Source of the DNA: a phage
Length of the DNA: 64,000 bases
Sequence record: PZ445554.1
Direction: 5' to 3' (one strand)
Part shown: piece by piece, positions 840 through 62,424 of the stretch
Position numbering within the stretch: the stretch's first letter is position 1
How the letters are laid out: each line of letters starts with the position of its first letter
Made by a program: the position numbers and the translations under genes
Notes under the pieces: generated by a model
Seen by the model: the letters and a program-made list of their open reading frames with translations, nothing else
What the model was told of the DNA's origin: nothing
Databases searched by the model: none

Positions 840-1088
840 TTACTTCAGTGTTACCACAAAGTGACGAACTGCTTTTCGTGCAGCAGAAGCCAAAGGCTTA
901 GCATATTTAAGCTCATCTTTTTCCTGGAGCTCAGCGGCTAATGCAGTTTGAGCAGGATTCAGATGTTTGAAATAACGCAGGATTTCAAGAGCTTCGGCTT
1001 CAACATCAATAGATGCGCCATAGTTTTCGTGACCATTATTCCATGCGTTTCGTTGCAGTTCAAGAGCGTGTTGTAATTGTTTAATCAT
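840..1088 (-). CDS. rIII: 82-aa protein at the rIII position (lysis-inhibition accessory protein candidate)
   Basis: 82 aa equals recalled T4 rIII length; sits immediately counter-clockwise of gene 31. Confidence 0.4.
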   Translation of the reverse strand: MIKQLQHALELQRNAWNNGHENYGASIDVEAEALEILRYFKHLNPAQTALAAELQEKDELKYAKPLASAARKAVRHFVVTLK

Positions 1089-1235
1089 TTAAAAATTCTC
1101 GTTAGAGATTAAAACTCGGTAGTCACGTTCTTCTGAATTTCATCTTCTTTCGACAGATCTCTCAGTTGTAGACTACCACATAGAATTGTTCGGTTAACTT
1201 ATTATTCCGACACCCAATTCATATTATTATTTATA

Positions 1236-1571
1236 TCACTTATAAAGACACGGAATAGCTTTATAGTGACAGGTAACGAATTTTTGTTTAATTTCTTTTG
1301 GCTGCTTAAGACCCAGAGCTACAAAAGGATGCGGAACATTTCGAATTTGACCAACTGGAAGAGAAGTCAAATCACCAACTTCGCAGAAACCTTCAGGAAC
1401 ATCAGGACCGACAGAGTGAACTACACACAGTTCAGGAACTTCACCTTGAACACGTTTACCGATAATAAGTCCTGATTCTGTGACTTCTTCATCACCAGCT
1501 TGTGCAGGTTCAGAAACTAAAATAACATATTCACCGACAGCACGAATTGGTAGCTGTTGTACTTCAGACAT
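1236..1571 (-). CDS. 31: co-chaperonin gp31 (GroES-like)
   Basis: 111 aa; sequence recognised as T4 gp31 ([16 protein letters not shown]...); ATG at 1569-1571; MotA-type middle promoter upstream. Confidence 0.85.
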
Positions 1572-1599
1572 TGTTTTTCCTTTTTGTTAACAGATGAAT

Positions 1600-1630
1600 T
1601 AATAATAACAAATAATTCTTAAAGCATTTA
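1600..1630 (-). promoter_or_regulatory. MotA-dependent middle promoter for gene 31
   Basis: MotA box AATGCTTTA, 12-bp spacer, TATTAT. Confidence 0.45.
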
Positions 1631-1936
1631 TTTACCAATAAATTGGAGTAAATGCTCAACTTTCATACCATTAACAGAAATCAATTTGTCAATAGAAAAA
1701 CCTCGCCATGCACCAAGTTCAACATCAAATACTGGAATCATGTCAGTAGATTCTTTCCGAGTAGATTCAGTCAATTTGCCGGTTTGCATGGTTGGCATAA
1801 AGTCCGCATCACGAGTACCTTTCATAATACGAATAGTACCATCAGACTTTTCAAAAACTACGTTTGAAACACCCATGGACAATTTAGTTTTCAAAATTTC
1901 ACGAATTGCTACTTTCTGCTCAGTTGTCAGTTTCAT
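1628..1936 (-). CDS. hypothetical protein, 102 aa
   Basis: ORF track, ATG start. Confidence 0.5.
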   Translation of the reverse strand: MKLTTEQKVAIREILKTKLSMGVSNVVFEKSDGTIRIMKGTRDADFMPTMQTGKLTESTRKESTDMIPVFDVELGAWRGFSIDKLISVNGMKVEHLLQFIGK

Positions 1937-2176
1937 TTATTTACCTATCACAGTTTTAATATGAGTTGTTCCACGTTCTTTAAGGGTGGAAAGTAATTTT
2001 TGGCATTTTTCTAAATCAGATTTCCAACTATATGGTCTATCAATACTAGTCCAATCAGTTTTATAATACTGTTTCCATTTAGAGAAAAAATATTTCTTAT
2101 ACTCTACAGCAAATGAGATGTTCTCATTAGAATAAGAACTAATTGCTGTGAGCTTTACCAAACGAAATTTCATCAT
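1937..2176 (-). CDS. hypothetical protein, 79 aa
   Basis: ORF track, ATG start, abuts cd. Confidence 0.45.
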   Translation of the reverse strand: MMKFRLVKLTAISSYSNENISFAVEYKKYFFSKWKQYYKTDWTSIDRPYSWKSDLEKCQKLLSTLKERGTTHIKTVIGK

Positions 2177-2754
2177 TCACCACAGAATTCGTTGATATTT
2201 TCCCAGTTTAACTTATTCAAGTTTTTCTTAGGAACATTAAACACTTCAATACCTGCATTTCGCAAAATATCATCCCAACCAGGTTTATTTTTGTCGTATG
2301 TTTCGCAATAAACTAGTTTTTTAATTCCAGATTGAGCTATCGCTTTTGCGCAATCCGGACATGGAGAAAGTGTTACATACATAGTAGCACCTTCAATAGA
2401 AGAACCATTTCGTGCAGCAAACAAAATTGCATTTAATTCAGCATGAATTTCATTTTTAGATGACCATTCCGAGTGAGCGCTGCGGTGTTCTTTCGCCAAG
2501 ACAAAACGATCAGTTGAACCAAATGATACACATTCAGGCTTATGGCCTTGAATGATAGTATGTTTAGGCTTATTCAGCAACCAACATTGCTCAGCAGCAT
2601 AATCACAACAGTTCACACCCCCTGCGGGTGAACCATTATACCCAGTAGAAATAATACGTCCATTCTTTTCAATTACTGCTCCTACCTTCCATGAGCAACA
2701 TTTTGATTCCTGCGATACTAAATATGCAATTTGAAGTACTGTACTCGCTTTCAT
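2173..2754 (-). CDS. cd: dCMP deaminase
   Basis: 193 aa; cytidine/dCMP deaminase zinc motifs HAELNAI and PCPDCA. Confidence 0.9.
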   Translation of the reverse strand: MKASTVLQIAYLVSQESKCCSWKVGAVIEKNGRIISTGYNGSPAGGVNCCDYAAEQCWLLNKPKHTIIQGHKPECVSFGSTDRFVLAKEHRSAHSEWSSKNEIHAELNAILFAARNGSSIEGATMYVTLSPCPDCAKAIAQSGIKKLVYCETYDKNKPGWDDILRNAGIEVFNVPKKNLNKLNWENINEFCGE

Positions 2755-3867: not shown

Positions 3868-3902
3868 GAGCTATAATATCACAACTCTACCGTAAAGTAA
3901 AC
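3868..3902 (-). promoter_or_regulatory. T4 early-type promoter
   Basis: GTTTAC-17 bp-GTGATATTATAG. Confidence 0.45.
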
Positions 3903-15157: not shown

Positions 15158-15190
15158 GTAATAGTATCACACTACTACCCTGTTGTAAAC
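15158..15190 (-). promoter_or_regulatory. T4 early-type promoter
   Basis: GTTTAC-17 bp-GTGATACTAT. Confidence 0.45.
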
Positions 15191-53021: not shown

Positions 53022-53056
53022 ATTCTATTATACCATACTCATTTTGGAAAGTAAAC
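53022..53056 (-). promoter_or_regulatory. T4 early-type promoter
   Basis: GTTTAC-spacer-TATGGTATAAT. Confidence 0.5.
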
Positions 53057-53548: not shown

Positions 53549-53745
53549 TTTGAATGCTCTATAATTAATTTTAAGGCTTTTTCACTGACAAAAATTTCAT
53601 CAGGACCTTCTTCTACAACCCAATCAACCATACGAAGCTGATTAGATAAGAGCTCGTATGTGAGCTCTTTGTCATAATTTTTAAATAGCTGGTCAATACG
53701 TTTCTTGCGGGCTTTCTTAAGCTGGCGTTTATTTAAACGAGCCAT
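53545..53745 (-). CDS. basic hypothetical protein, 66 aa
   Basis: ATG at 53743-53745 overlapping gene 56 stop. Confidence 0.4.
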   Translation of the reverse strand: MARLNKRQLKKARKKRIDQLFKNYDKELTYELLSNQLRMVDWVVEEGPDEIFVSEKALKLIIEHSK

Positions 53746-54263
53746 CAATAACCTCGGTCTTGACGAGCGAAATTTTCAGCATTTTTCAGATAATAAAGTT
53801 TAAAGATTTCTTCAGCTGACATTCCAAGAGCAATGAATTTATTCATGAAAAAGTGAAATTGGTCAATCAGTTCAAATTTAATTTCAAGCTGATCTTCGGG
53901 AGATAAATCTTGAATTTTCTTGGATTGCATTTCAGAATAACGTTTCTTCCAAGGTTTCCATACGGCAGAAGCTTCTTTTTCACCATTACTCATACCACCA
54001 AGAGAAGTATATAGCTCGCGAGTTTCATCTGCGATATAATCGTCTTGGTTTCGCAGCCAAGCAAGAACTTCTCCTGCAGTTTCAAGTGAATCAGGATGAC
54101 GATTTGTTTCTGGTTTATCATTAGCCAAACGAATCTGTAAATGCCGCTGCATATCAAGCATAACCTGCAGTGGGTCAATATTGTGCATAATATTCTCAGC
54201 ATATGCACGAGTTGCTTTATCAACACCTTCGATCAAATGAGCACATTCATTAAAGTGAGCCAT
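53745..54263 (-). CDS. 56: dCTP/dUTP pyrophosphatase gp56 (MazG-like)
   Basis: 172 aa from ATG at 54261-54263 with SD AAGGA; the track's 36-aa N-terminal extension runs through the middle promoter. Confidence 0.7.
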   Translation of the reverse strand: MAHFNECAHLIEGVDKATRAYAENIMHNIDPLQVMLDMQRHLQIRLANDKPETNRHPDSLETAGEVLAWLRNQDDYIADETRELYTSLGGMSNGEKEASAVWKPWKKRYSEMQSKKIQDLSPEDQLEIKFELIDQFHFFMNKFIALGMSAEEIFKLYYLKNAENFARQDRGY

Positions 54264-54295
54264 TATTTTTCCTTTCAATTCATGGATTAATAGAT

Positions 54296-54325
54296 TAATT
54301 ATACAATAAATATATAAAGCAATAA
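54296..54325 (-). promoter_or_regulatory. MotA-dependent middle promoter for gene 56
   Basis: MotA box ATTGCTTTA, 11-bp spacer, TATAAT. Confidence 0.5.
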
Positions 54326-54336
54326 GGAGGATATAT

Positions 54337-54537
54337 ATGGTACAAAAATTAATGGCACTTGTTAATGCCATAAAAGGTAATAAAAAACGTATAGCTTTTA
54401 CTATTTCTGCTATGGTAGGAATTTTACTCTGGAACTTTATTCTATCACCTGTTGCAATTGCACATGGTATTAATATTCCAGTAGTTACTCTTGATACATT
54501 CGTAGATTTAGCATTTGCTTTAGTTGGGTTAATTTAA
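54337..54537 (+). CDS. small hydrophobic ORF, 66 aa, antisense to the 56-61 intergenic region (uncertain)
   Basis: ORF track; apparent SD AAGGAGG is the complement of the gene 56 MotA box, so it may be coincidental. Confidence 0.3.
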   Translation: MVQKLMALVNAIKGNKKRIAFTISAMVGILLWNFILSPVAIAHGINIPVVTLDTFVDLAFALVGLI

Positions 54538-55562
54538 ATCTTGGCATATTTAGATAGCCGCATTTTAGCCATTAACCCCTGGGCAATATTATTTTTCATA
54601 TATTCCATAATTTGTTCAGGGGTTGCACCTTCCTTTCTAATCATATCATTAACATCTTTTGATTTCCAGGGAGATTTATCCCAAAACATAACCCTTTCTC
54701 CTGCATCAACTAATTTAGTCATTCGCTTAATAGTGTCAGGATGACGAGGTTCATTATCTAAAACCCACACGCGTCTATCTTTAAATGGAACAATTTCTAG
54801 GTCTAATTGACCACCCGTAATAGCTATACCATTTTCAATAAAAAGTGAATCTATAGGTCCTTCTAGAACATATACATCACCATCTTTAACTCGTTCGACT
54901 CCATAGATTTTTGTTGCCTCAGGATAAGCTTTGATGGTGATATATTTTTGAGGAGCATCTTTCTTTAATGCACGTCCTTGAAAAGACTCAGCTTTTCCAT
55001 TAGCATTATAAATTGGAATAACAAGACGAGGCTCAGGTATTTCCTTTTTATATGTTCCTGGTGCTATGCTATTAACTAATTTAGGCCATTCAGTTGTAAA
55101 CCAAAGATATTTCCATTTATCCTTTGGAATACAACGAGCTTTTACGTATTTTATAATTGGATGGTCTTCCGCCAGTTTATCTAATCTAACACATGACGGA
55201 AGAGATTTAATTATTTTCTTCTCAGGTTGTTTAGGAAGTTCTTTAGGTTTTTCTACTGGACGACTTTTACCTTTTTCTTTTCTTATTTCAAAGATATACT
55301 CACGATATAAATCAGGTTCAAACTCCTTTAAATATATTCCGATTGGTGCATGATAGTTACAGTTATAACAATGAATATTTCCTTCATTATTATCACCATA
55401 ATACCATCCACGAGCTTTATTCTGGTCGGTTTTTGAATCTCCACAAACAGGGCATCTAAACCGTAATTTAAAAGTTGAACTATTATTTACTTGTGTGAAT
55501 TTAGGTAAATGAGCTAATGCACGGTATGCAAACTCATTATCAATCCAAGGTATTGATGACAT
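54534..55562 (-). CDS. 61: DNA primase gp61
   Basis: 342 aa; N-terminal zinc ribbon CPVCGD...CYNCNYH and TOPRIM motif VYVLEGPIDSLF. Confidence 0.9.
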   Translation of the reverse strand: MSSIPWIDNEFAYRALAHLPKFTQVNNSSTFKLRFRCPVCGDSKTDQNKARGWYYGDNNEGNIHCYNCNYHAPIGIYLKEFEPDLYREYIFEIRKEKGKSRPVEKPKELPKQPEKKIIKSLPSCVRLDKLAEDHPIIKYVKARCIPKDKWKYLWFTTEWPKLVNSIAPGTYKKEIPEPRLVIPIYNANGKAESFQGRALKKDAPQKYITIKAYPEATKIYGVERVKDGDVYVLEGPIDSLFIENGIAITGGQLDLEIVPFKDRRVWVLDNEPRHPDTIKRMTKLVDAGERVMFWDKSPWKSKDVNDMIRKEGATPEQIMEYMKNNIAQGLMAKMRLSKYAKI

Positions 55563-55729
55563 TTTTACTCTTCTTTTTCTTTAGATTCCTCTTTTTTCTT
55601 TTTAGGAATCTGTTCAGGACCTTTATTTACTACAGCGCCTGATGTTGTTCCAGTAGAGATATTTTCAGGACTACCACCTGAATCTCCAGCGACCATATCT
55701 TCTTTGATAAATTCTTTATATGTTTTCAT
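55559..55729 (-). CDS. small lysine/glutamate-rich ORF, about 56 aa (absent from track)
   Basis: Stop abuts gene 61 start. Confidence 0.3.
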
Positions 55730-55730
55730 A

Positions 55731-56087
55731 TTAACCTCTATTCATAAAAGCATTAAAAATTTGGTCATCAATAGATGGTGCAGTAATATTTTCTGCATCA
55801 TTTAGCAAATCATTAATTTCATCAGATAGCATAACACATGTACCTTTATTTCCTGTAATTGTTACTGCGCAATTACGAACGTTTTCTTTATTAAATTTTA
55901 GGTTAATATTTTCGTAATGAAAATCCTTTAGTGCTGAATATATTTTTAAAATAAAATTATCTTTTACTATAATAAACCCAACCTCACTATTAAAACGTGG
56001 TTCATGGAAACTGTAATAAACCTTTTCATCTATAAAATCGTATGAAATTTTTTCCATTTTTAAATATGAAAATTCAGAACTATGCAT
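55731..56087 (-). CDS. hypothetical protein, 118 aa (61.2 position)
   Basis: ORF track; second ORF clockwise of gene 61. Confidence 0.45.
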   Translation of the reverse strand: MHSSEFSYLKMEKISYDFIDEKVYYSFHEPRFNSEVGFIIVKDNFILKIYSALKDFHYENINLKFNKENVRNCAVTITGNKGTCVMLSDEINDLLNDAENITAPSIDDQIFNAFMNRG

Positions 56088-56099
56088 ACTAACCTCTAA

Positions 56100-56393
56100 T
56101 TACTCACCTACCACTTCAGCGATGATATTTTTGTTATTAAAGTTTTTATCGCAATACAGAACATAATTATACTGCATTACACCACCAGACTTAAGCTGTT
56201 TTTGCACTTCAGCTTTCATTTCAGGACGATCGCGCTCAACGATATTCATAATATCTGCTTCAATTTGGGTTTCAACCTCAGTCTGATCCGCAGTCATAGA
56301 CCATTCGCACAAATCTTTATCATAACCTGCCATAGCAGGCTGAGCAGCACAAGAAGCTAAAGCAAAAATTGTGGCAAAGATAAATTTTTTCAT
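56100..56393 (-). CDS. sp: periplasmic superinfection-exclusion protein Spackle (candidate)
   Basis: 97 aa with cleavable signal peptide MKKFIFATIFALASCAAQPAMAG; length and position match T4 Sp. Confidence 0.65.
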   Translation of the reverse strand: MKKFIFATIFALASCAAQPAMAGYDKDLCEWSMTADQTEVETQIEADIMNIVERDRPEMKAEVQKQLKSGGVMQYNYVLYCDKNFNNKNIIAEVVGE

Positions 56394-56417
56394 GATAATC
56401 TCCTCAGTAGTTTATGT

Positions 56418-56451
56418 TTATATAGTATCTCAATTTCCAACAAAAGTAAAC
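56418..56451 (-). promoter_or_regulatory. T4 early-type promoter for sp
   Basis: GTTTAC-17 bp-ATACTATAT. Confidence 0.45.
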
Positions 56452-56453
56452 AG

Positions 56454-56711
56454 CTATTTTAAAACTTTTGCATAATCACATGTTACAAACTGTTTCTCTA
56501 GCTTGACGATTTTACGAAAGTATCTTTTGCATTGGCGAATCTGCCGCTTCGTAGGGCGAACAGCAAACTTAATAAATTCCACTCGACCAAATGGAGGACT
56601 TTCTTCTGCTGGAATATCTAGCACCAATTCCCACGTATCTGCAATAAGTGCTTTGAATTGTGTATTTTTCCTAACGTTATACGGAGTAGGTTTAAATAAA
56701 ACAATATGCAT
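56454..56711 (-). CDS. basic hypothetical protein, about 85 aa
   Basis: ATG at 56709-56711 with SD GAGGA preferred; the longer track form would overlap dmd by 38 nt. Confidence 0.4.
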   Translation of the reverse strand: MHIVLFKPTPYNVRKNTQFKALIADTWELVLDIPAEESPPFGRVEFIKFAVRPTKRQIRQCKRYFRKIVKLEKQFVTCDYAKVLK

Positions 56712-56712
56712 A

Positions 56713-56895
56713 TTATCCTCGGCAATCCACTTCACACACTTTCTTGTCATCAATGAAAGCTTTAACTAATGCTTTATTAACTTCAGCATACTGAGTAGTA
56801 GCCCATTGAACGTCATCTTTCATCATTGTGGTTTCTTTAGTAAACATGCTTTCATTCTTAAACCACCCCATAAAAACTACCTTTACCAATTCCAT
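56713..56895 (-). CDS. dmd: Dmd antitoxin (inhibitor of RnlA/LsoA-type toxins) candidate
   Basis: 60 aa, length and position next to gene 41 match T4 Dmd; SD GAGGAGA. Confidence 0.6.
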   Translation of the reverse strand: MELVKVVFMGWFKNESMFTKETTMMKDDVQWATTQYAEVNKALVKAFIDDKKVCEVDCRG

Positions 56896-56921
56896 AACAA
56901 TCTCCTCATTTAACCAACAAG

Positions 56922-56954
56922 ACTACTATACCATAGTCTTGTCAGCTTGTAAAC
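56922..56954 (-). promoter_or_regulatory. T4 early-type promoter for dmd
   Basis: GTTTAC-17 bp-GTATAGTAG. Confidence 0.45.
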
Positions 56955-58381
56955 TAAAATTTTAATTCATTTGCCAAAGCATCTAACTGAGCTCGAGTCG
57001 ATTCGTTTCTTTGATAGCGATTCTGCTCAGCTTGTATCTGTTGTGAACCTGCTACCTCACTCACTTCAGTTGGAGTAGAATCTTGTTCAATTTCTACCCA
57101 TTTCTGATTTCCTTTTTGAACACCCATCAAAAACTTATTCCATTTATTCTTATCACCATATCGTGATTTGATTTGCTTAATAAGTTGTTGTTCAGCAGCT
57201 GCTAACTCCTCGGTTTCAATGACCGCAAGCATAAAATCAGCTGTTGCTGGAAGACCGGCAGATTCTGCAATATCGCTCATGTTAACATCAGAAGAATCCC
57301 AAGCTTGTTTACCAACCTGTGCTGCAGTCCAAAGAACAGTTTCGGTTTCAACAGCAAGAGCACGTAATTCCTCTGCAATGGCTTTAACAGTTGTGTAACT
57401 ATTTTCTGAGTAAACTCTAATGCGGCAAGATTTACAAATACCCAGATAGTCGACAATAATGATTGTTGGAACAAAATTCTTCTTGAGCTTTAATTCGTTT
57501 AAAAGCGATCGAAATGTATTAGCATCTGCTCCACCAGTAGGATACTGTTTAACTATTAAACGACCGAGAGTAGATTTCTCGCGCCATTTTTCCATTTTTC
57601 CTTTATACTCAGCGTAAGAAATATGCCCATCATCAATATCATCAAGAGAAACATCAAGCATATTAGCATCAATACGCTTAGCACAGACTTCTTCTGCCAT
57701 TTCCATGGAAATGTAAAGAACATTATGTCCGAGCTGCAAATAATCTGCTGCCAATGAACACAATCCTAATGACTTACCAACGTTAACTCCAGCCATTAAA
57801 ACGTTCAGTGTTCCAGTCTCAGCTCCGCCTTTAGTAATTTTGTTTAGAATTCTGAGTTTAAATGGAACCTTACGAGCTTTATTCATATAAGATAGCCAAC
57901 GTGCTTCGTAGTCATCCATCCAATCATGACCAACGTAACTATCAAATGAAATAGATAATGCCTGGCGCATGATGTCAGGAATAGCACCAACATCTGGCAT
58001 TTTCTTATTTCGTTTTTCCGGAGGAAGCTCAGCATTAGTTTGAATTTCGATTATTTTAGACGTAGCATTAAACATCGCCCTTTGCTGAACATATTTTTCT
58101 GTTTCTTTTACTAACCAACTGTGGTCTTCCGGAGAATCAGCCAGTTTTGAAATAAGTGTTTTTACACCAGAATATTCTGTTTCAGTAAATGAACTATTTT
58201 CTAATGCAACATTTAACGCATTAATAGATGGAACGCTATGATACTCATTGACATGAGATTTAATTAATTTGAATGTATTTTTAGCTGGACCACTTTCAAA
58301 ATATTCTGAATCCATATATGGCCAAACTTTTGAAAAATAAGCTTGATCAAATATGAGATGAGAAAGAATAATTTCTACCAC
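56954..58381 (-). CDS. 41: replicative DNA helicase gp41 (DnaB-like)
   Basis: 475 aa; Walker A GVNVGKS; GTG start as in track gives the T4 length. Confidence 0.9.
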   Translation of the reverse strand: MVEIILSHLIFDQAYFSKVWPYMDSEYFESGPAKNTFKLIKSHVNEYHSVPSINALNVALENSSFTETEYSGVKTLISKLADSPEDHSWLVKETEKYVQQRAMFNATSKIIEIQTNAELPPEKRNKKMPDVGAIPDIMRQALSISFDSYVGHDWMDDYEARWLSYMNKARKVPFKLRILNKITKGGAETGTLNVLMAGVNVGKSLGLCSLAADYLQLGHNVLYISMEMAEEVCAKRIDANMLDVSLDDIDDGHISYAEYKGKMEKWREKSTLGRLIVKQYPTGGADANTFRSLLNELKLKKNFVPTIIIVDYLGICKSCRIRVYSENSYTTVKAIAEELRALAVETETVLWTAAQVGKQAWDSSDVNMSDIAESAGLPATADFMLAVIETEELAAAEQQLIKQIKSRYGDKNKWNKFLMGVQKGNQKWVEIEQDSTPTEVSEVAGSQQIQAEQNRYQRNESTRAQLDALANELKF

Positions 58382-58390
58382 ACTTACTCC

Positions 58391-58753
58391 TTAAAAGAAT
58401 TTAAATTTTTTCTTTGACCTTTTATTAAATGCATCTTGTAGTTGCATTGTAATACATTTTTCTACATGAGGAGCTAACTCAGCTTTTCTTTCTTGGTCAA
58501 GAACAGCAAAGTCCATTACAACCTTTCCATCAACCCAATCCAGTTTAGTTACATACACTATATGTGTAGAACCATCTTCTAGTTTAATGACAATCTCCTG
58601 GATAACATTTTCCATAGCGGATTTAATTATCTTAAGAGACTCATTAAAAAGACGTTCTTTTCTTTCTTCTTCCCCCTCCGAAGAGGGGGATTCATCGATA
58701 ATTTCTAGATCTAAATCTAAATCATCTTTATTCATTAAATTCTTCCATATCAC
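58391..58753 (-). CDS. 40: head vertex assembly protein gp40 (candidate)
   Basis: 120 aa with GTG start (or 114 aa from ATG at 58733-58735); position between 41 and uvsX. Confidence 0.45.
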   Translation of the reverse strand: MIWKNLMNKDDLDLDLEIIDESPSSEGEEERKERLFNESLKIIKSAMENVIQEIVIKLEDGSTHIVYVTKLDWVDGKVVMDFAVLDQERKAELAPHVEKCITMQLQDAFNKRSKKKFKFF

Positions 58754-62387: not shown

Positions 62388-62424
62388 AGTTGTATAGTAC
62401 CATGGAAGAACAGGGATGTAAACA
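62388..62424 (-). promoter_or_regulatory. T4 early-type promoter (cassette copy)
   Basis: GTTTAC-18 bp-ATGGTACTATAC. Confidence 0.5.

What the first reader, a model, noticed from the sequence alone, without database searches (positions are those of the whole stretch)
55559..56895. Compact early block between primase and helicase encoding candidate counter-defence and exclusion proteins
Five short ORFs lie between gene 61 and gene 41, matching the 61.1 to 61.5 layout of T4. They include a periplasmic signal-peptide protein of Spackle length (97 aa, 56100-56393) and a 60-aa protein of Dmd length abutting gene 41 (56713-56895); Dmd is an antitoxin against RnlA/LsoA. From memory, the 61.2 position (here 55731-56087, 118 aa) is where an anti-DarT factor was reported in T-even phages, which I cannot verify. 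sp and dmd each have their own early promoter.
Basis: partly seen in the sequence, partly recalled or inferred. Interest (0 to 1): 0.4.

Follow-up and report, generated by a model that had tools for sequence, protein, structure and literature searches.

The report
Known T-even phage anti-toxin gene island
This is the well-studied cluster of five small early genes between the primase and helicase genes of a T4-like phage (61.1, 61.2, Spackle, TifA, Dmd), so it is ordinary, except that the "61.2" slot holds the uncharacterised short T2-type gene rather than the known anti-DarT factor AdfA.

Summary
Five minus-strand genes lie between gene 61 (54534-55562) and gene 41 (56954-58381) of a Tequatrovirus. 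They are 61.1, 61.2, sp, 61.4 and dmd. Four of them are 94-99% identical to the T4 proteins. Sp (96/97 aa) and Dmd (59/60 aa) match solved structures. Both proposed early promoters match a 20-member, minus-strand-only GTTTAC-N16-18-TAnnnT family in the window.

The weak point is 61.2. T4 AdfA is 208 aa with two modules. The window gene is the 118-aa T2-type gene. Its Pfam AdfA hit comes entirely from a shared 14-aa C-terminal tail. The literature states that T2 lacks adfA. The short gene is a separate gene, not an adfA allele: 158 phage records carry it in tandem with adfA and 141 carry it alone, as here. Predicted structures suggest it is a single-module relative of AdfA whose target is unknown.

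The block has already been described as the T-even "anti-TA island", so interest is low. The only modestly new point is the family of cassettes that share the tail.

The parts
54534..55562 (-). gene 61, DNA primase (downstream flank of the block)
   Evidence: 342 aa, 338/342 identical to T4 gp61.
55565..55729 (-). gene 61.1, 54 aa, Gly/Ser-rich centre and Lys/Glu-rich C-terminus, function unknown
   Evidence: 51/54 identical to T4 gp61.1 and 54/54 to Bas44. phrog_1823 E 2e-33. No Pfam or NCBIfam hit.
55731..56087 (-). short T2-type 'gene 61.2', 118 aa, a predicted single beta5-alpha-beta-alpha module plus a C-terminal tail helix; not the characterised AdfA
   Evidence: 117/118 identical to Bas44 and 106/108 to the annotated T2 gp61.2. 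phrog_4122 E 2e-71, whereas AdfA falls in phrog_3781. The Pfam AdfA hit (32.5 bits) is lost without the tail. AF2 model pLDDT 81.5.
55734..55775 (-). shared C-terminal tail SIDDQIFNAFMNRG, with the GAGG Shine-Dalgarno for 61.1 inside its last codons
   Evidence: The DNA is identical to the 3' end of T4 adfA. The same tail ends three different gene bodies in T4-like phages.
56100..56393 (-). sp (61.3), Spackle: secreted periplasmic inhibitor of the gp5 tail lysozyme
   Evidence: Pfam PF25676 E 1e-44. 96/97 identical to T4 Sp. PDB 6x6o/6xc0/6xc1/7cn6; the crystallised mature chain 7cn6 starts at residue 23, after the AQPAMA signal peptide.
56422..56451 (-). early-promoter-like site for sp (and for 61.2, 61.1 and 61 downstream)
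   Evidence: GTTTACTTTTGTTGGAAATTGAGATACTAT is one of 20 minus-strand-only matches against 2.6 expected. It is invariant in T4, T2 and Bas44. A 'promoter downstream of tifA' is noted in PMC9391042.
56454..56711 (-). tifA (61.4), 85 aa, protein inhibitor of the ToxN endoribonuclease toxin
   Evidence: 85/85 identical to T2 TifA and 83/85 to T4 TifA. Pfam DUF7279 E 1e-20. T4 and T2 TifA were shown experimentally to inhibit ToxN (PMC9391042).
56713..56895 (-). dmd (61.5), 60 aa, antitoxin mimic that inhibits the RnlA/LsoA toxins
   Evidence: Pfam PF17587 E 2e-45. 60/60 identical to T2 and 59/60 to T4. PDB 5hy3_B 'Antitoxin Dmd' E 1e-36.
56925..56954 (-). early promoter of the dmd-tifA operon; overlaps the gene 41 stop codon by one base
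   Evidence: GTTTACAAGCTGACAAGACTATGGTATAGT. It was also the best sigma-70 scan hit, 10/12 with an extended TG. The dmd-tifA operon is 'driven by an early T4 promoter' (PMC9391042).
56954..58381 (-). gene 41, replicative helicase (upstream flank)
   Evidence: 475 aa, 474/475 identical to T4 gp41.

Best explanation
The block is the T-even 'anti-TA island' plus the superinfection-exclusion gene sp, in the T2-type haplotype. It is transcribed early from the minus strand as two units.

(1) P(dmd) drives dmd-tifA. Dmd binds and blocks the RnlA/LsoA RNase toxins. TifA binds and blocks the ToxN RNase that is released from type III toxIN.

(2) P(sp) drives sp-61.2-61.1 and runs into gene 61. These genes are packed with 1-12 nt gaps, which suggests coupled translation. 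Sp is exported through its 22-aa signal peptide and inhibits the lysozyme domain of the gp5 tail spike of superinfecting T-even phages.

All of this is shown in the sense that the proteins are near-identical to experimentally characterised ones.

The following is inferred. The 118-aa protein in the 61.2 slot is a single-module relative of the two-module DarT1-binding protein AdfA and shares its C-terminal tail helix. It most likely acts as a stoichiometric binder and neutraliser of some host toxin or defence effector other than the tested DarT1. The function of gp61.1 remains unknown.
For: Identity of the block. Megablast gives 97-99% identity to Tequatrovirus genomes that carry the same annotation.

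Published functions. Dmd, TifA and AdfA are described together as an 'anti-TA island', with a dmd-tifA operon and the T2 TifA allele active against ToxN (PMC9391042). Spackle inhibition of gp5 lysozyme is in PMC7677548.

Promoters. The motif GTTTAC-N16-18-TAnnnT occurs 20 times, all on the minus strand, against 2.6 expected. Two of the sites sit 28 and 29 nt upstream of the sp and dmd start codons.

Short 61.2 gene.
- It is intact in 299 phage records.
- It lies in tandem with a full adfA in 158 records and alone after sp in 141.
- Gaprivervirus orthologues at 46% identity keep the same length.
- The AF2 model is confident (pLDDT 81.5) with topology beta5-alpha-beta-alpha plus a tail helix.
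- The AdfA model shows two beta5-alpha modules plus the same tail helix.
- Foldseek hits between the short form, AdfA and the 145-aa Gaprivervirus neighbour are reciprocal and exclusive (E 1e-4 to 2e-3).
- Tail-less profile comparisons are weak but collinear, and centre on the shared motif (hydrophobic)-(hydrophobic)-V-K-D/N-N-x-I (P 3e-4 to 3e-3).
Against: No function was assayed here. All functional statements are transferred from T4 and T2 homologues.

The relationship of the short 61.2 protein to AdfA is not statistically secure once the tail is removed. There is no Pfam hit. An exhaustive phmmer search of 1.8 billion representatives finds only its own family. The hhalign probability is 17-37%. 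The Foldseek 3Di+AA scores are partly helped by the identical tail.

The residue aligned to the DarT1-specificity histidine (RB69 H164, T4 H165) is Asn72.

Confidence: 0.92

Rival explanations
1. The 118-aa 61.2 product is a functional AdfA that neutralises DarT1.
For: It occupies the same slot between sp and 61.1. Its Pfam AdfA score is 32.5 bits, above the 27-bit cut-off. The protein database has PF23813 precomputed on its homologues. Phages with this haplotype (T2, Bas44) are resistant to DarTG1 (PMC11825919).
Against: The Pfam hit covers only profile positions 113-211, and it disappears when the 14-aa tail is removed. The N-terminal module is absent. Asn72 replaces the His that is required for DarT1 binding. 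The authors who defined AdfA say T2 lacks a homologue, and they map T2's DarTG1 resistance to gp30.3 (AdfN) instead. The short gene coexists with a full adfA in 158 genomes, so it is a different gene.
Confidence: 0.07
2. The short 61.2 ORF is a decaying remnant of adfA (a deletion derivative) with no function of its own.
For: It shares the exact 3' end of adfA. The 12-nt spacer before its start codon (TTAGAGGTTAGT) resembles the last codons of the tail, AATAGAGGTTAAT. This suggests the haplotype arose by deleting adfA from a tandem adfA-short arrangement.
Against: The body is not a truncated adfA: tail-less identity is about 32% over 62 aa. The ORF is intact and 91-99% conserved in 299 records. 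It is retained next to an intact adfA. It has length-conserved orthologues at 46% identity in another genus. It folds with high predicted confidence.
Confidence: 0.04
3. The shared 14-codon tail is conserved for DNA- or RNA-level reasons only (a recombination handle and the translation-initiation region of the next gene), not as a functional peptide.
For: The tail's last codons contain the GAGG Shine-Dalgarno, and TAATATG stop/start junctions precede whichever gene follows, whether 61.1 or the short gene. Copies within one genome are nearly identical at the DNA level. Tandem copies would promote gain and loss of cassettes.
Against: Between genera the tail shows synonymous changes (GAT/GAC, CAA/CAG, GCT/GCC, TTT/TTC, AGA/CGA) while 12 of 14 residues are kept. 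It is far more conserved than the bodies, which are 46% identical. It is predicted to be a helix in both the short and the long model. Only the last 2-3 codons are needed for a Shine-Dalgarno.
Confidence: 0.25

Closest known systems
Phage T4 'anti-TA island': genes 61.1, adfA (61.2), sp, tifA (61.4), dmd (61.5) between genes 61 and 41 (Srikant et al. 2022, PMC9391042)
   Same: Same order, strand and flanking genes, and the same two early promoters. gp61.1 is 51/54, Sp 96/97, TifA 83/85 and Dmd 59/60 identical to T4.
   Different: The 61.2 slot holds a 118-aa gene instead of the 208-aa adfA. DNA identity collapses between the sp stop codon and the last 14 codons of the slot.
Phage T2 and BASEL phage Bas44 (AdolfPortmann), 61-41 interval
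   Same: Same haplotype with the short gene only. The region is 97.7% (T2) and 98.7% (Bas44) identical. TifA and Dmd are identical to T2; gp61.1 and Sp are identical to Bas44; the short gp61.2 is 117/118 identical to Bas44.
   Different: There are only a few substitutions. T2 record LC348380 annotates the short gene from an internal ATG (108 aa) and has a frameshifted Sp C-terminus (92 aa); the window has neither feature.
AdfA, anti-DarT factor A (Pfam PF23813; LeRoux et al. 2022, Nat Commun 2025 PMC11825919)
   Same: Same locus. Identical 14-aa C-terminal tail. A similar predicted beta5-alpha module and the VKDN hairpin motif. Reciprocal Foldseek hits.
   Different: One module instead of two. 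No significant sequence similarity outside the tail. Asn at the position of the DarT1-specificity His. The two fall in different PHROGs. The short gene coexists with adfA in many genomes.

Membership tests
Spackle (T4 Sp, Pfam PF25676) | Full-length match to the family profile and to the crystallised protein | tested here: met
   Pfam E 1.3e-44 over residues 1-96 of 96. PDB 6x6o_A E 8e-62. 96/97 identical to T4 Sp, with the single change K53E.
Spackle (T4 Sp, Pfam PF25676) | N-terminal secretion signal, giving a periplasmic mature protein | tested here: met
   Residues 1-22, MKKFIFATIFALASCAAQPAMA, are identical to T4. The mature crystallised chain 7cn6_A aligns from residue 23. No signal-peptide predictor was run.
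Spackle (T4 Sp, Pfam PF25676) | Inhibits gp5 lysozyme and confers superinfection exclusion | not testable with these tools
   Transferred from PMC7677548.
Dmd (Pfam PF17587) | 60-aa protein with a full-length profile match and identity to the solved antitoxin | tested here: met
   Pfam E 1.8e-45 over 1-60 of 60. PDB 5hy3_B E 1e-36. 59/60 identical to T4 and 60/60 to T2.
Dmd (Pfam PF17587) | First gene of an early operon immediately downstream of gene 41 | tested here: met
   Promoter match at 56925-56954. The operon is described in PMC9391042.
Dmd (Pfam PF17587) | Neutralises the RnlA/LsoA toxins | not testable with these tools
   Transferred from the literature cited in PMC9391042.
TifA (gp61.4, Pfam DUF7279 PF23945) | 85-aa protein with a central basic cluster, encoded directly downstream of dmd | tested here: met
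   DUF7279 E 1.3e-20. Central sequence RPTKRQIRQCKRYFRKIVK. The start codon follows the dmd stop after 1 nt.
TifA (gp61.4, Pfam DUF7279 PF23945) | Sequence identity to an allele shown experimentally to inhibit ToxN | tested here: met
   85/85 identical to T2 TifA and 83/85 to T4 TifA. Both alleles rescue cells from ToxN and allow plaquing on toxIN+ cells (PMC9391042).
AdfA (Pfam PF23813) | Full-length protein of about 208-216 aa (two predicted beta5-alpha modules) | tested here: not met
   118 aa. Only profile positions 113-211 of 211 are aligned. The model has one module, against two in the AdfA model.
AdfA (Pfam PF23813) | Significant sequence similarity beyond the shared C-terminal tail | tested here: not met
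   The tail-less query has no Pfam AdfA hit even at E <= 10. phmmer against 1.84 billion representatives finds no AdfA. hhalign P is 0.0015, probability 17%.
AdfA (Pfam PF23813) | Histidine at position 164 (RB69 numbering), required for DarT1 binding | tested here: not met
   T4 H165 aligns with window Asn72 in both the MAFFT and hhalign alignments. The requirement is stated in PMC11825919. The alignment is weak in this region.
AdfA (Pfam PF23813) | Located between sp and 61.1 and ending in SIDDQIFNAFMNRG | tested here: met
AdfA (Pfam PF23813) | Binds and neutralises DarT1 | not testable with these tools
   The literature treats the T2 haplotype as lacking adfA.

The most novel reading that the evidence does not exclude
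The sp-61.1 slot of T4-like phages is a cassette hot-spot. It holds a small family of toxin-neutralising proteins with different bodies: the two-module AdfA, the 118-aa single-module protein found here, and a ~145-aa type in Gaprivervirus. All end in the same 14-residue helix, S[IV]DDQIFNAFM[NK][RK][GD], which is kept under purifying selection. On this reading the variable body sets the toxin specificity, and the short protein targets a toxin other than DarT1. The common tail would provide a shared function, such as docking to a common partner. It would also act as the recombination handle that shuffles cassettes, producing the adfA-only (about 329 records), adfA+short (158) and short-only (141) haplotypes.
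Probability: 0.3. Interest if true: 0.45.

Novelty: already known. Interest (0 to 1): 0.15.

Why it matters
The block itself adds nothing new. It is the textbook T-even 61-41 interval, already described as an anti-toxin-antitoxin island.

Practical value: the phage can be annotated with three proven or near-proven functions (Sp, TifA, Dmd). The analysis also warns that automated 'AdfA' labels on the short 61.2 gene are driven by the tail and are probably wrong; both the Pfam PF23813 hit and the precomputed domain tags are affected.

Modest scientific value: about 300 sequenced T4-like phages carry an uncharacterised, well-conserved gene in a known counter-defence hot-spot that appears related to AdfA. 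That makes it a cheap and well-motivated candidate for anti-defence screening.

Tried and rejected
- An Rfam scan of 54000-58500 at E <= 1 found nothing.
- NCBIfam had no hit for any of the six small proteins.
- The Foldseek afdb50 library was not installed, so bacterial structural relatives could not be searched.
- The exhaustive phmmer search of the tail-less short protein returned two long multi-stretch proteins (P0007 and P0008, 1267-1370 aa, 6-7 short stretches). I regard these as low-complexity noise.
- Miller et al. 2003 (PMC150520), wanted for the official T4 promoter list, is not held. Promoters were instead assessed with a window-wide motif count.
- One literature search was swamped by Duchenne 'DMD' papers.
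- The generic sigma-70 scan missed the sp promoter (8/12 to the E. coli consensus) and listed many AT-rich chance sites, 26 against 18.6 expected. It was not relied on.
- I checked whether adfN (gp30.3), the main anti-DarTG1 factor, lies in the window. It does not. The window begins near rIII, just outside the 30.x cluster, so its presence in this phage cannot be judged.
Full report
**What is there**

The window is a T4-like phage of the genus Tequatrovirus. Region 55400-57100 is 97-99% identical to more than 470 genomes, best to BASEL phage Bas44 AdolfPortmann (98.7%) and 97.7% to T2. The last 24 kb is at most about 96% identical to any single record, so the genome is a mosaic that is not itself in the collection.

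Five genes lie on the minus strand between gene 61 (54534-55562) and gene 41 (56954-58381):

| Gene | Coordinates | Length |
|---|---|---|
| 61.1 | 55565-55729 | 54 aa |
| 61.2 | 55731-56087 | 118 aa |
| sp | 56100-56393 | 97 aa |
| 61.4 | 56454-56711 | 85 aa |
| dmd | 56713-56895 | 60 aa |

The order, strand and spacing match the annotated T4, T2 and Bas44 records. Each protein matches a PHROG over its full length with E from 2e-33 to 2e-71. Only the block start, 55559, is 6 nt too far left.

**The well-characterised genes**

- **Sp.** It is 96/97 identical to T4 Spackle, matches Pfam T4_Spackle at E 1e-44 and matches the crystallised protein (6x6o, 6xc0, 6xc1, 7cn6). The mature crystallised chain starts at residue 23, after the signal peptide MKKFIFATIFALASCAAQPAMA. 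[quoted passage not shown]
- **Dmd.** It is 59/60 identical to T4 and 60/60 to T2. Pfam gives E 2e-45, and PDB 5hy3_B 'Antitoxin Dmd' gives E 1e-36. [quoted passage not shown]
- **61.4.** It is tifA. Srikant et al. renamed T4 61.4 'ToxN inhibitory factor A', showed that it is co-operonic with dmd, and showed that the T2, T4, T6 and RB69 alleles all inhibit ToxN. The window protein is 85/85 identical to T2 TifA and 83/85 to T4 TifA, and matches Pfam DUF7279 at E 1e-20.
- **gp61.1.** It is 51/54 identical to T4. It has no family beyond a PHROG of unknown function.

**Promoters**

The T4 early-promoter-like pattern GTTTAC-N16-18-TAnnnT occurs 20 times in the 64-kb window. All 20 are on the minus strand, against 2.6 expected on both strands, and none of 100 shuffles reached 20.

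- 56422-56451, which begins 3 nt after the tifA stop codon and ends 28 nt upstream of the sp start codon.
- 56925-56954, which overlaps the gene 41 stop codon by one base and ends 29 nt upstream of the dmd start codon.

The second site was also the best hit of the generic sigma-70 scan (10/12 with an extended TG). The literature agrees: dmd-tifA is driven by an early promoter upstream of dmd, and another promoter lies downstream of tifA. No such site precedes 61.2, 61.1 or 61. These genes follow sp with gaps of 12, 1 and 2 nt, so they are probably read from P(sp) and from upstream read-through. No Rfam family matches the region.

**The 61.2 slot**

T4 gene 61.2 is adfA, the anti-DarT factor. 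AdfA binds DarT1, and a histidine at position 164 (RB69 numbering) is needed for that binding (PMC11825919). T4 AdfA is 208 aa, whereas the window gene is 118 aa.

In the DNA alignment the flanks are about 99% identical to T4. Identity collapses right after the sp stop codon and resumes only in the last 14 codons, SIDDQIFNAFMNRG.

The sequence evidence on the relationship to AdfA is as follows:

- Pfam scores the window protein at 32.5 bits against AdfA (cut-off 27), but only over profile positions 113-211.
- With the 14-residue tail removed there is no AdfA hit, even at E <= 10.
- An exhaustive phmmer search of the tail-less protein against 1.84 billion representatives finds only its own family and a 119-aa Gaprivervirus relative.
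- PHROGs places the short and long proteins in different families, phrog_4122 and phrog_3781.
- The residue aligned to the specificity histidine (T4 H165) is Asn72.
- The authors who defined AdfA state that T2 'naturally lacks an adfA homolog'. They map T2's DarTG1 resistance to gp30.3 (AdfN), which lies outside this window.

I therefore do not file the window gene as AdfA.

**The short gene is a separate gene, not an allele**

Phage vB_EcoM_F1 carries sp, then a 210-aa adfA, then the 118-aa gene, then 61.1, all in tandem. Both adfA and the short gene end in the same tail.

Counts in the INPHARED collection are given below. They include some duplicate RefSeq/GenBank records.

| Feature | Records |
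|---|---|
| Short gene present (>= 60% aa identity) | 299 |
| adfA-to-short junction present | 158 |
| sp-to-short junction present, as in the window | 141 |
| adfA present | 487 |
| adfA only (487 minus 158) | about 329 |

The 12-nt spacer before the short gene in the window, TTAGAGGTTAGT, resembles the last codons of the tail, AATAGAGGTTAAT. This suggests that the short-only haplotype arose by deletion of adfA from a tandem ancestor. That step is an inference.

**Is the short protein related to AdfA at all?**

Probably, but distantly.

- The AF2 model of the short protein is confident (pLDDT 81.5, pTM 0.71). It has five antiparallel strands, a helix, a strand and a helix, followed by a low-confidence tail helix.
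- The AdfA model (pLDDT 72) shows two consecutive five-strand-plus-helix modules followed by the same tail helix.
- Tail-less profile comparisons give weak, collinear matches centred on a shared hairpin motif. That motif reads FIIVKDNFILKI in the short protein, FVFVKNNEIIAV in the AdfA N-terminal half and GIFVKDNRITRI in the AdfA C-terminal half, with P from 3e-4 to 3e-3.
- In BFVD, the short-protein model and the AdfA model each hit the same four entries and nothing else at E below 0.01. These are two AdfA entries (one 212 aa; the other a 157-aa entry 96% identical to AdfA), the 118-aa Gaprivervirus relative of the short gene, and a 145-aa protein of phage VR25.
- The same ~145-aa type is encoded directly upstream of the short-gene orthologue in Gaprivervirus phage RZ, and it also ends in SVDDQIFNAFMKRD.
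- A scan of IMG/VR for the back-translated tail found 16 T4-like contigs. Every complete tail-bearing ORF belonged to one of three body types: AdfA-long, the short type, or the ~145-aa type.
- Between genera the tail shows synonymous changes but keeps 12 of 14 residues, while the short-gene bodies are only 46% identical. This argues for constraint at the protein level.

**Verdict**

The block is the known T-even anti-TA island plus sp, in the T2-type haplotype. The implied identification of the 118-aa ORF as the anti-DarT factor fails three of the defining features tested here.

The most likely role of the short protein is as a stoichiometric binder of some other host toxin or effector. This is inferred from its hot-spot location, its conservation and its AdfA-like module, and it is untested.

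Novelty: already known. The family of cassettes that share the tail is a minor new observation worth a cheap genetic test.

Noticed in passing
window, 20 sites on the minus strand (for example 70-98, 3873-3902, 15161-15190, 53027-53056, 62394-62423): GTTTAC-N16-18-TAnnnT occurs 20 times, only on the minus strand, against 2.6 expected. Most sites carry a TG or TGG before the -10 element (GTGATATTAT, GTGGTACTAT). This is effectively a map of the early promoters of this 64-kb early region.
   Followed up: partly
L006:1594-2584 (phage vB_EcoM_F1); L004:2059-2851 (phage vB_EcoM_RZ); IMG/VR loci L008-L023: Three different gene bodies in the sp-61.1 slot of T4-like phages all end in the same 14-aa tail, S[IV]DDQIFNAFM[NK][RK][GD]. 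They are the 208-216 aa AdfA, the 117-119 aa short gene and a ~145-aa gene. Two of them often lie in tandem. The tail shows synonymous changes between genera.
   Followed up: yes
window 53745-54537: No dam methyltransferase gene lies next to gene 61, and a tblastn search with the C-terminal 208 aa of T4 Dam finds nothing anywhere in the window. Instead gene 56 (dCTPase) abuts a plus-strand 66-aa hydrophobic ORF (54337-54537, phrog_2024, annotated as hypothetical in Bas44 and F1), which ends 4 nt inside the gene 61 stop region.
   Followed up: partly
L002:2717-2995 (T2 record LC348380): T2 sp is annotated as 92 aa with a different C-terminus (…NKNNHR). The cause is one extra A in an A-run relative to the window, T4 and Bas44. 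It is either a real frameshift in T2 Spackle or a sequencing error.
   Followed up: no
window 55565-55729: Residues 8-53 of gp61.1 also match the C-terminal third (positions 109-154 of 156) of a second PHROG, phrog_2086, at E 2e-16. Some phages therefore carry the 61.1 sequence as the tail of a longer protein, which is another shared C-terminal piece in this region.
   Followed up: no
window 56917-56944, minus strand: An 8-bp inverted repeat, CAAGACTA…TAGTCTTG, spans the -10 element (TATAGT) of the dmd promoter. It would form a hairpin only in read-through transcripts coming from gene 41. It is followed by TTGGTT rather than a T-run, so it is not a canonical terminator.
   Followed up: no
window 56340-56393 (Sp signal peptide): The Sp signal peptide contains L-A-S-C, which resembles a lipobox. 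One GenBank record (PEC04) annotates the protein as having a lipoprotein lipid-attachment domain. The structural papers treat residue 23 as the mature N-terminus.
   Followed up: no
window 843-2754: rIII (843-1088), gene 31 (1239-1571) and cd (2176-2754) are 99-100% identical to T4. The window therefore begins just to the right of the T4 30.x cluster, and adfN (30.3), the main anti-DarTG1 gene, lies just outside it.
   Followed up: yes
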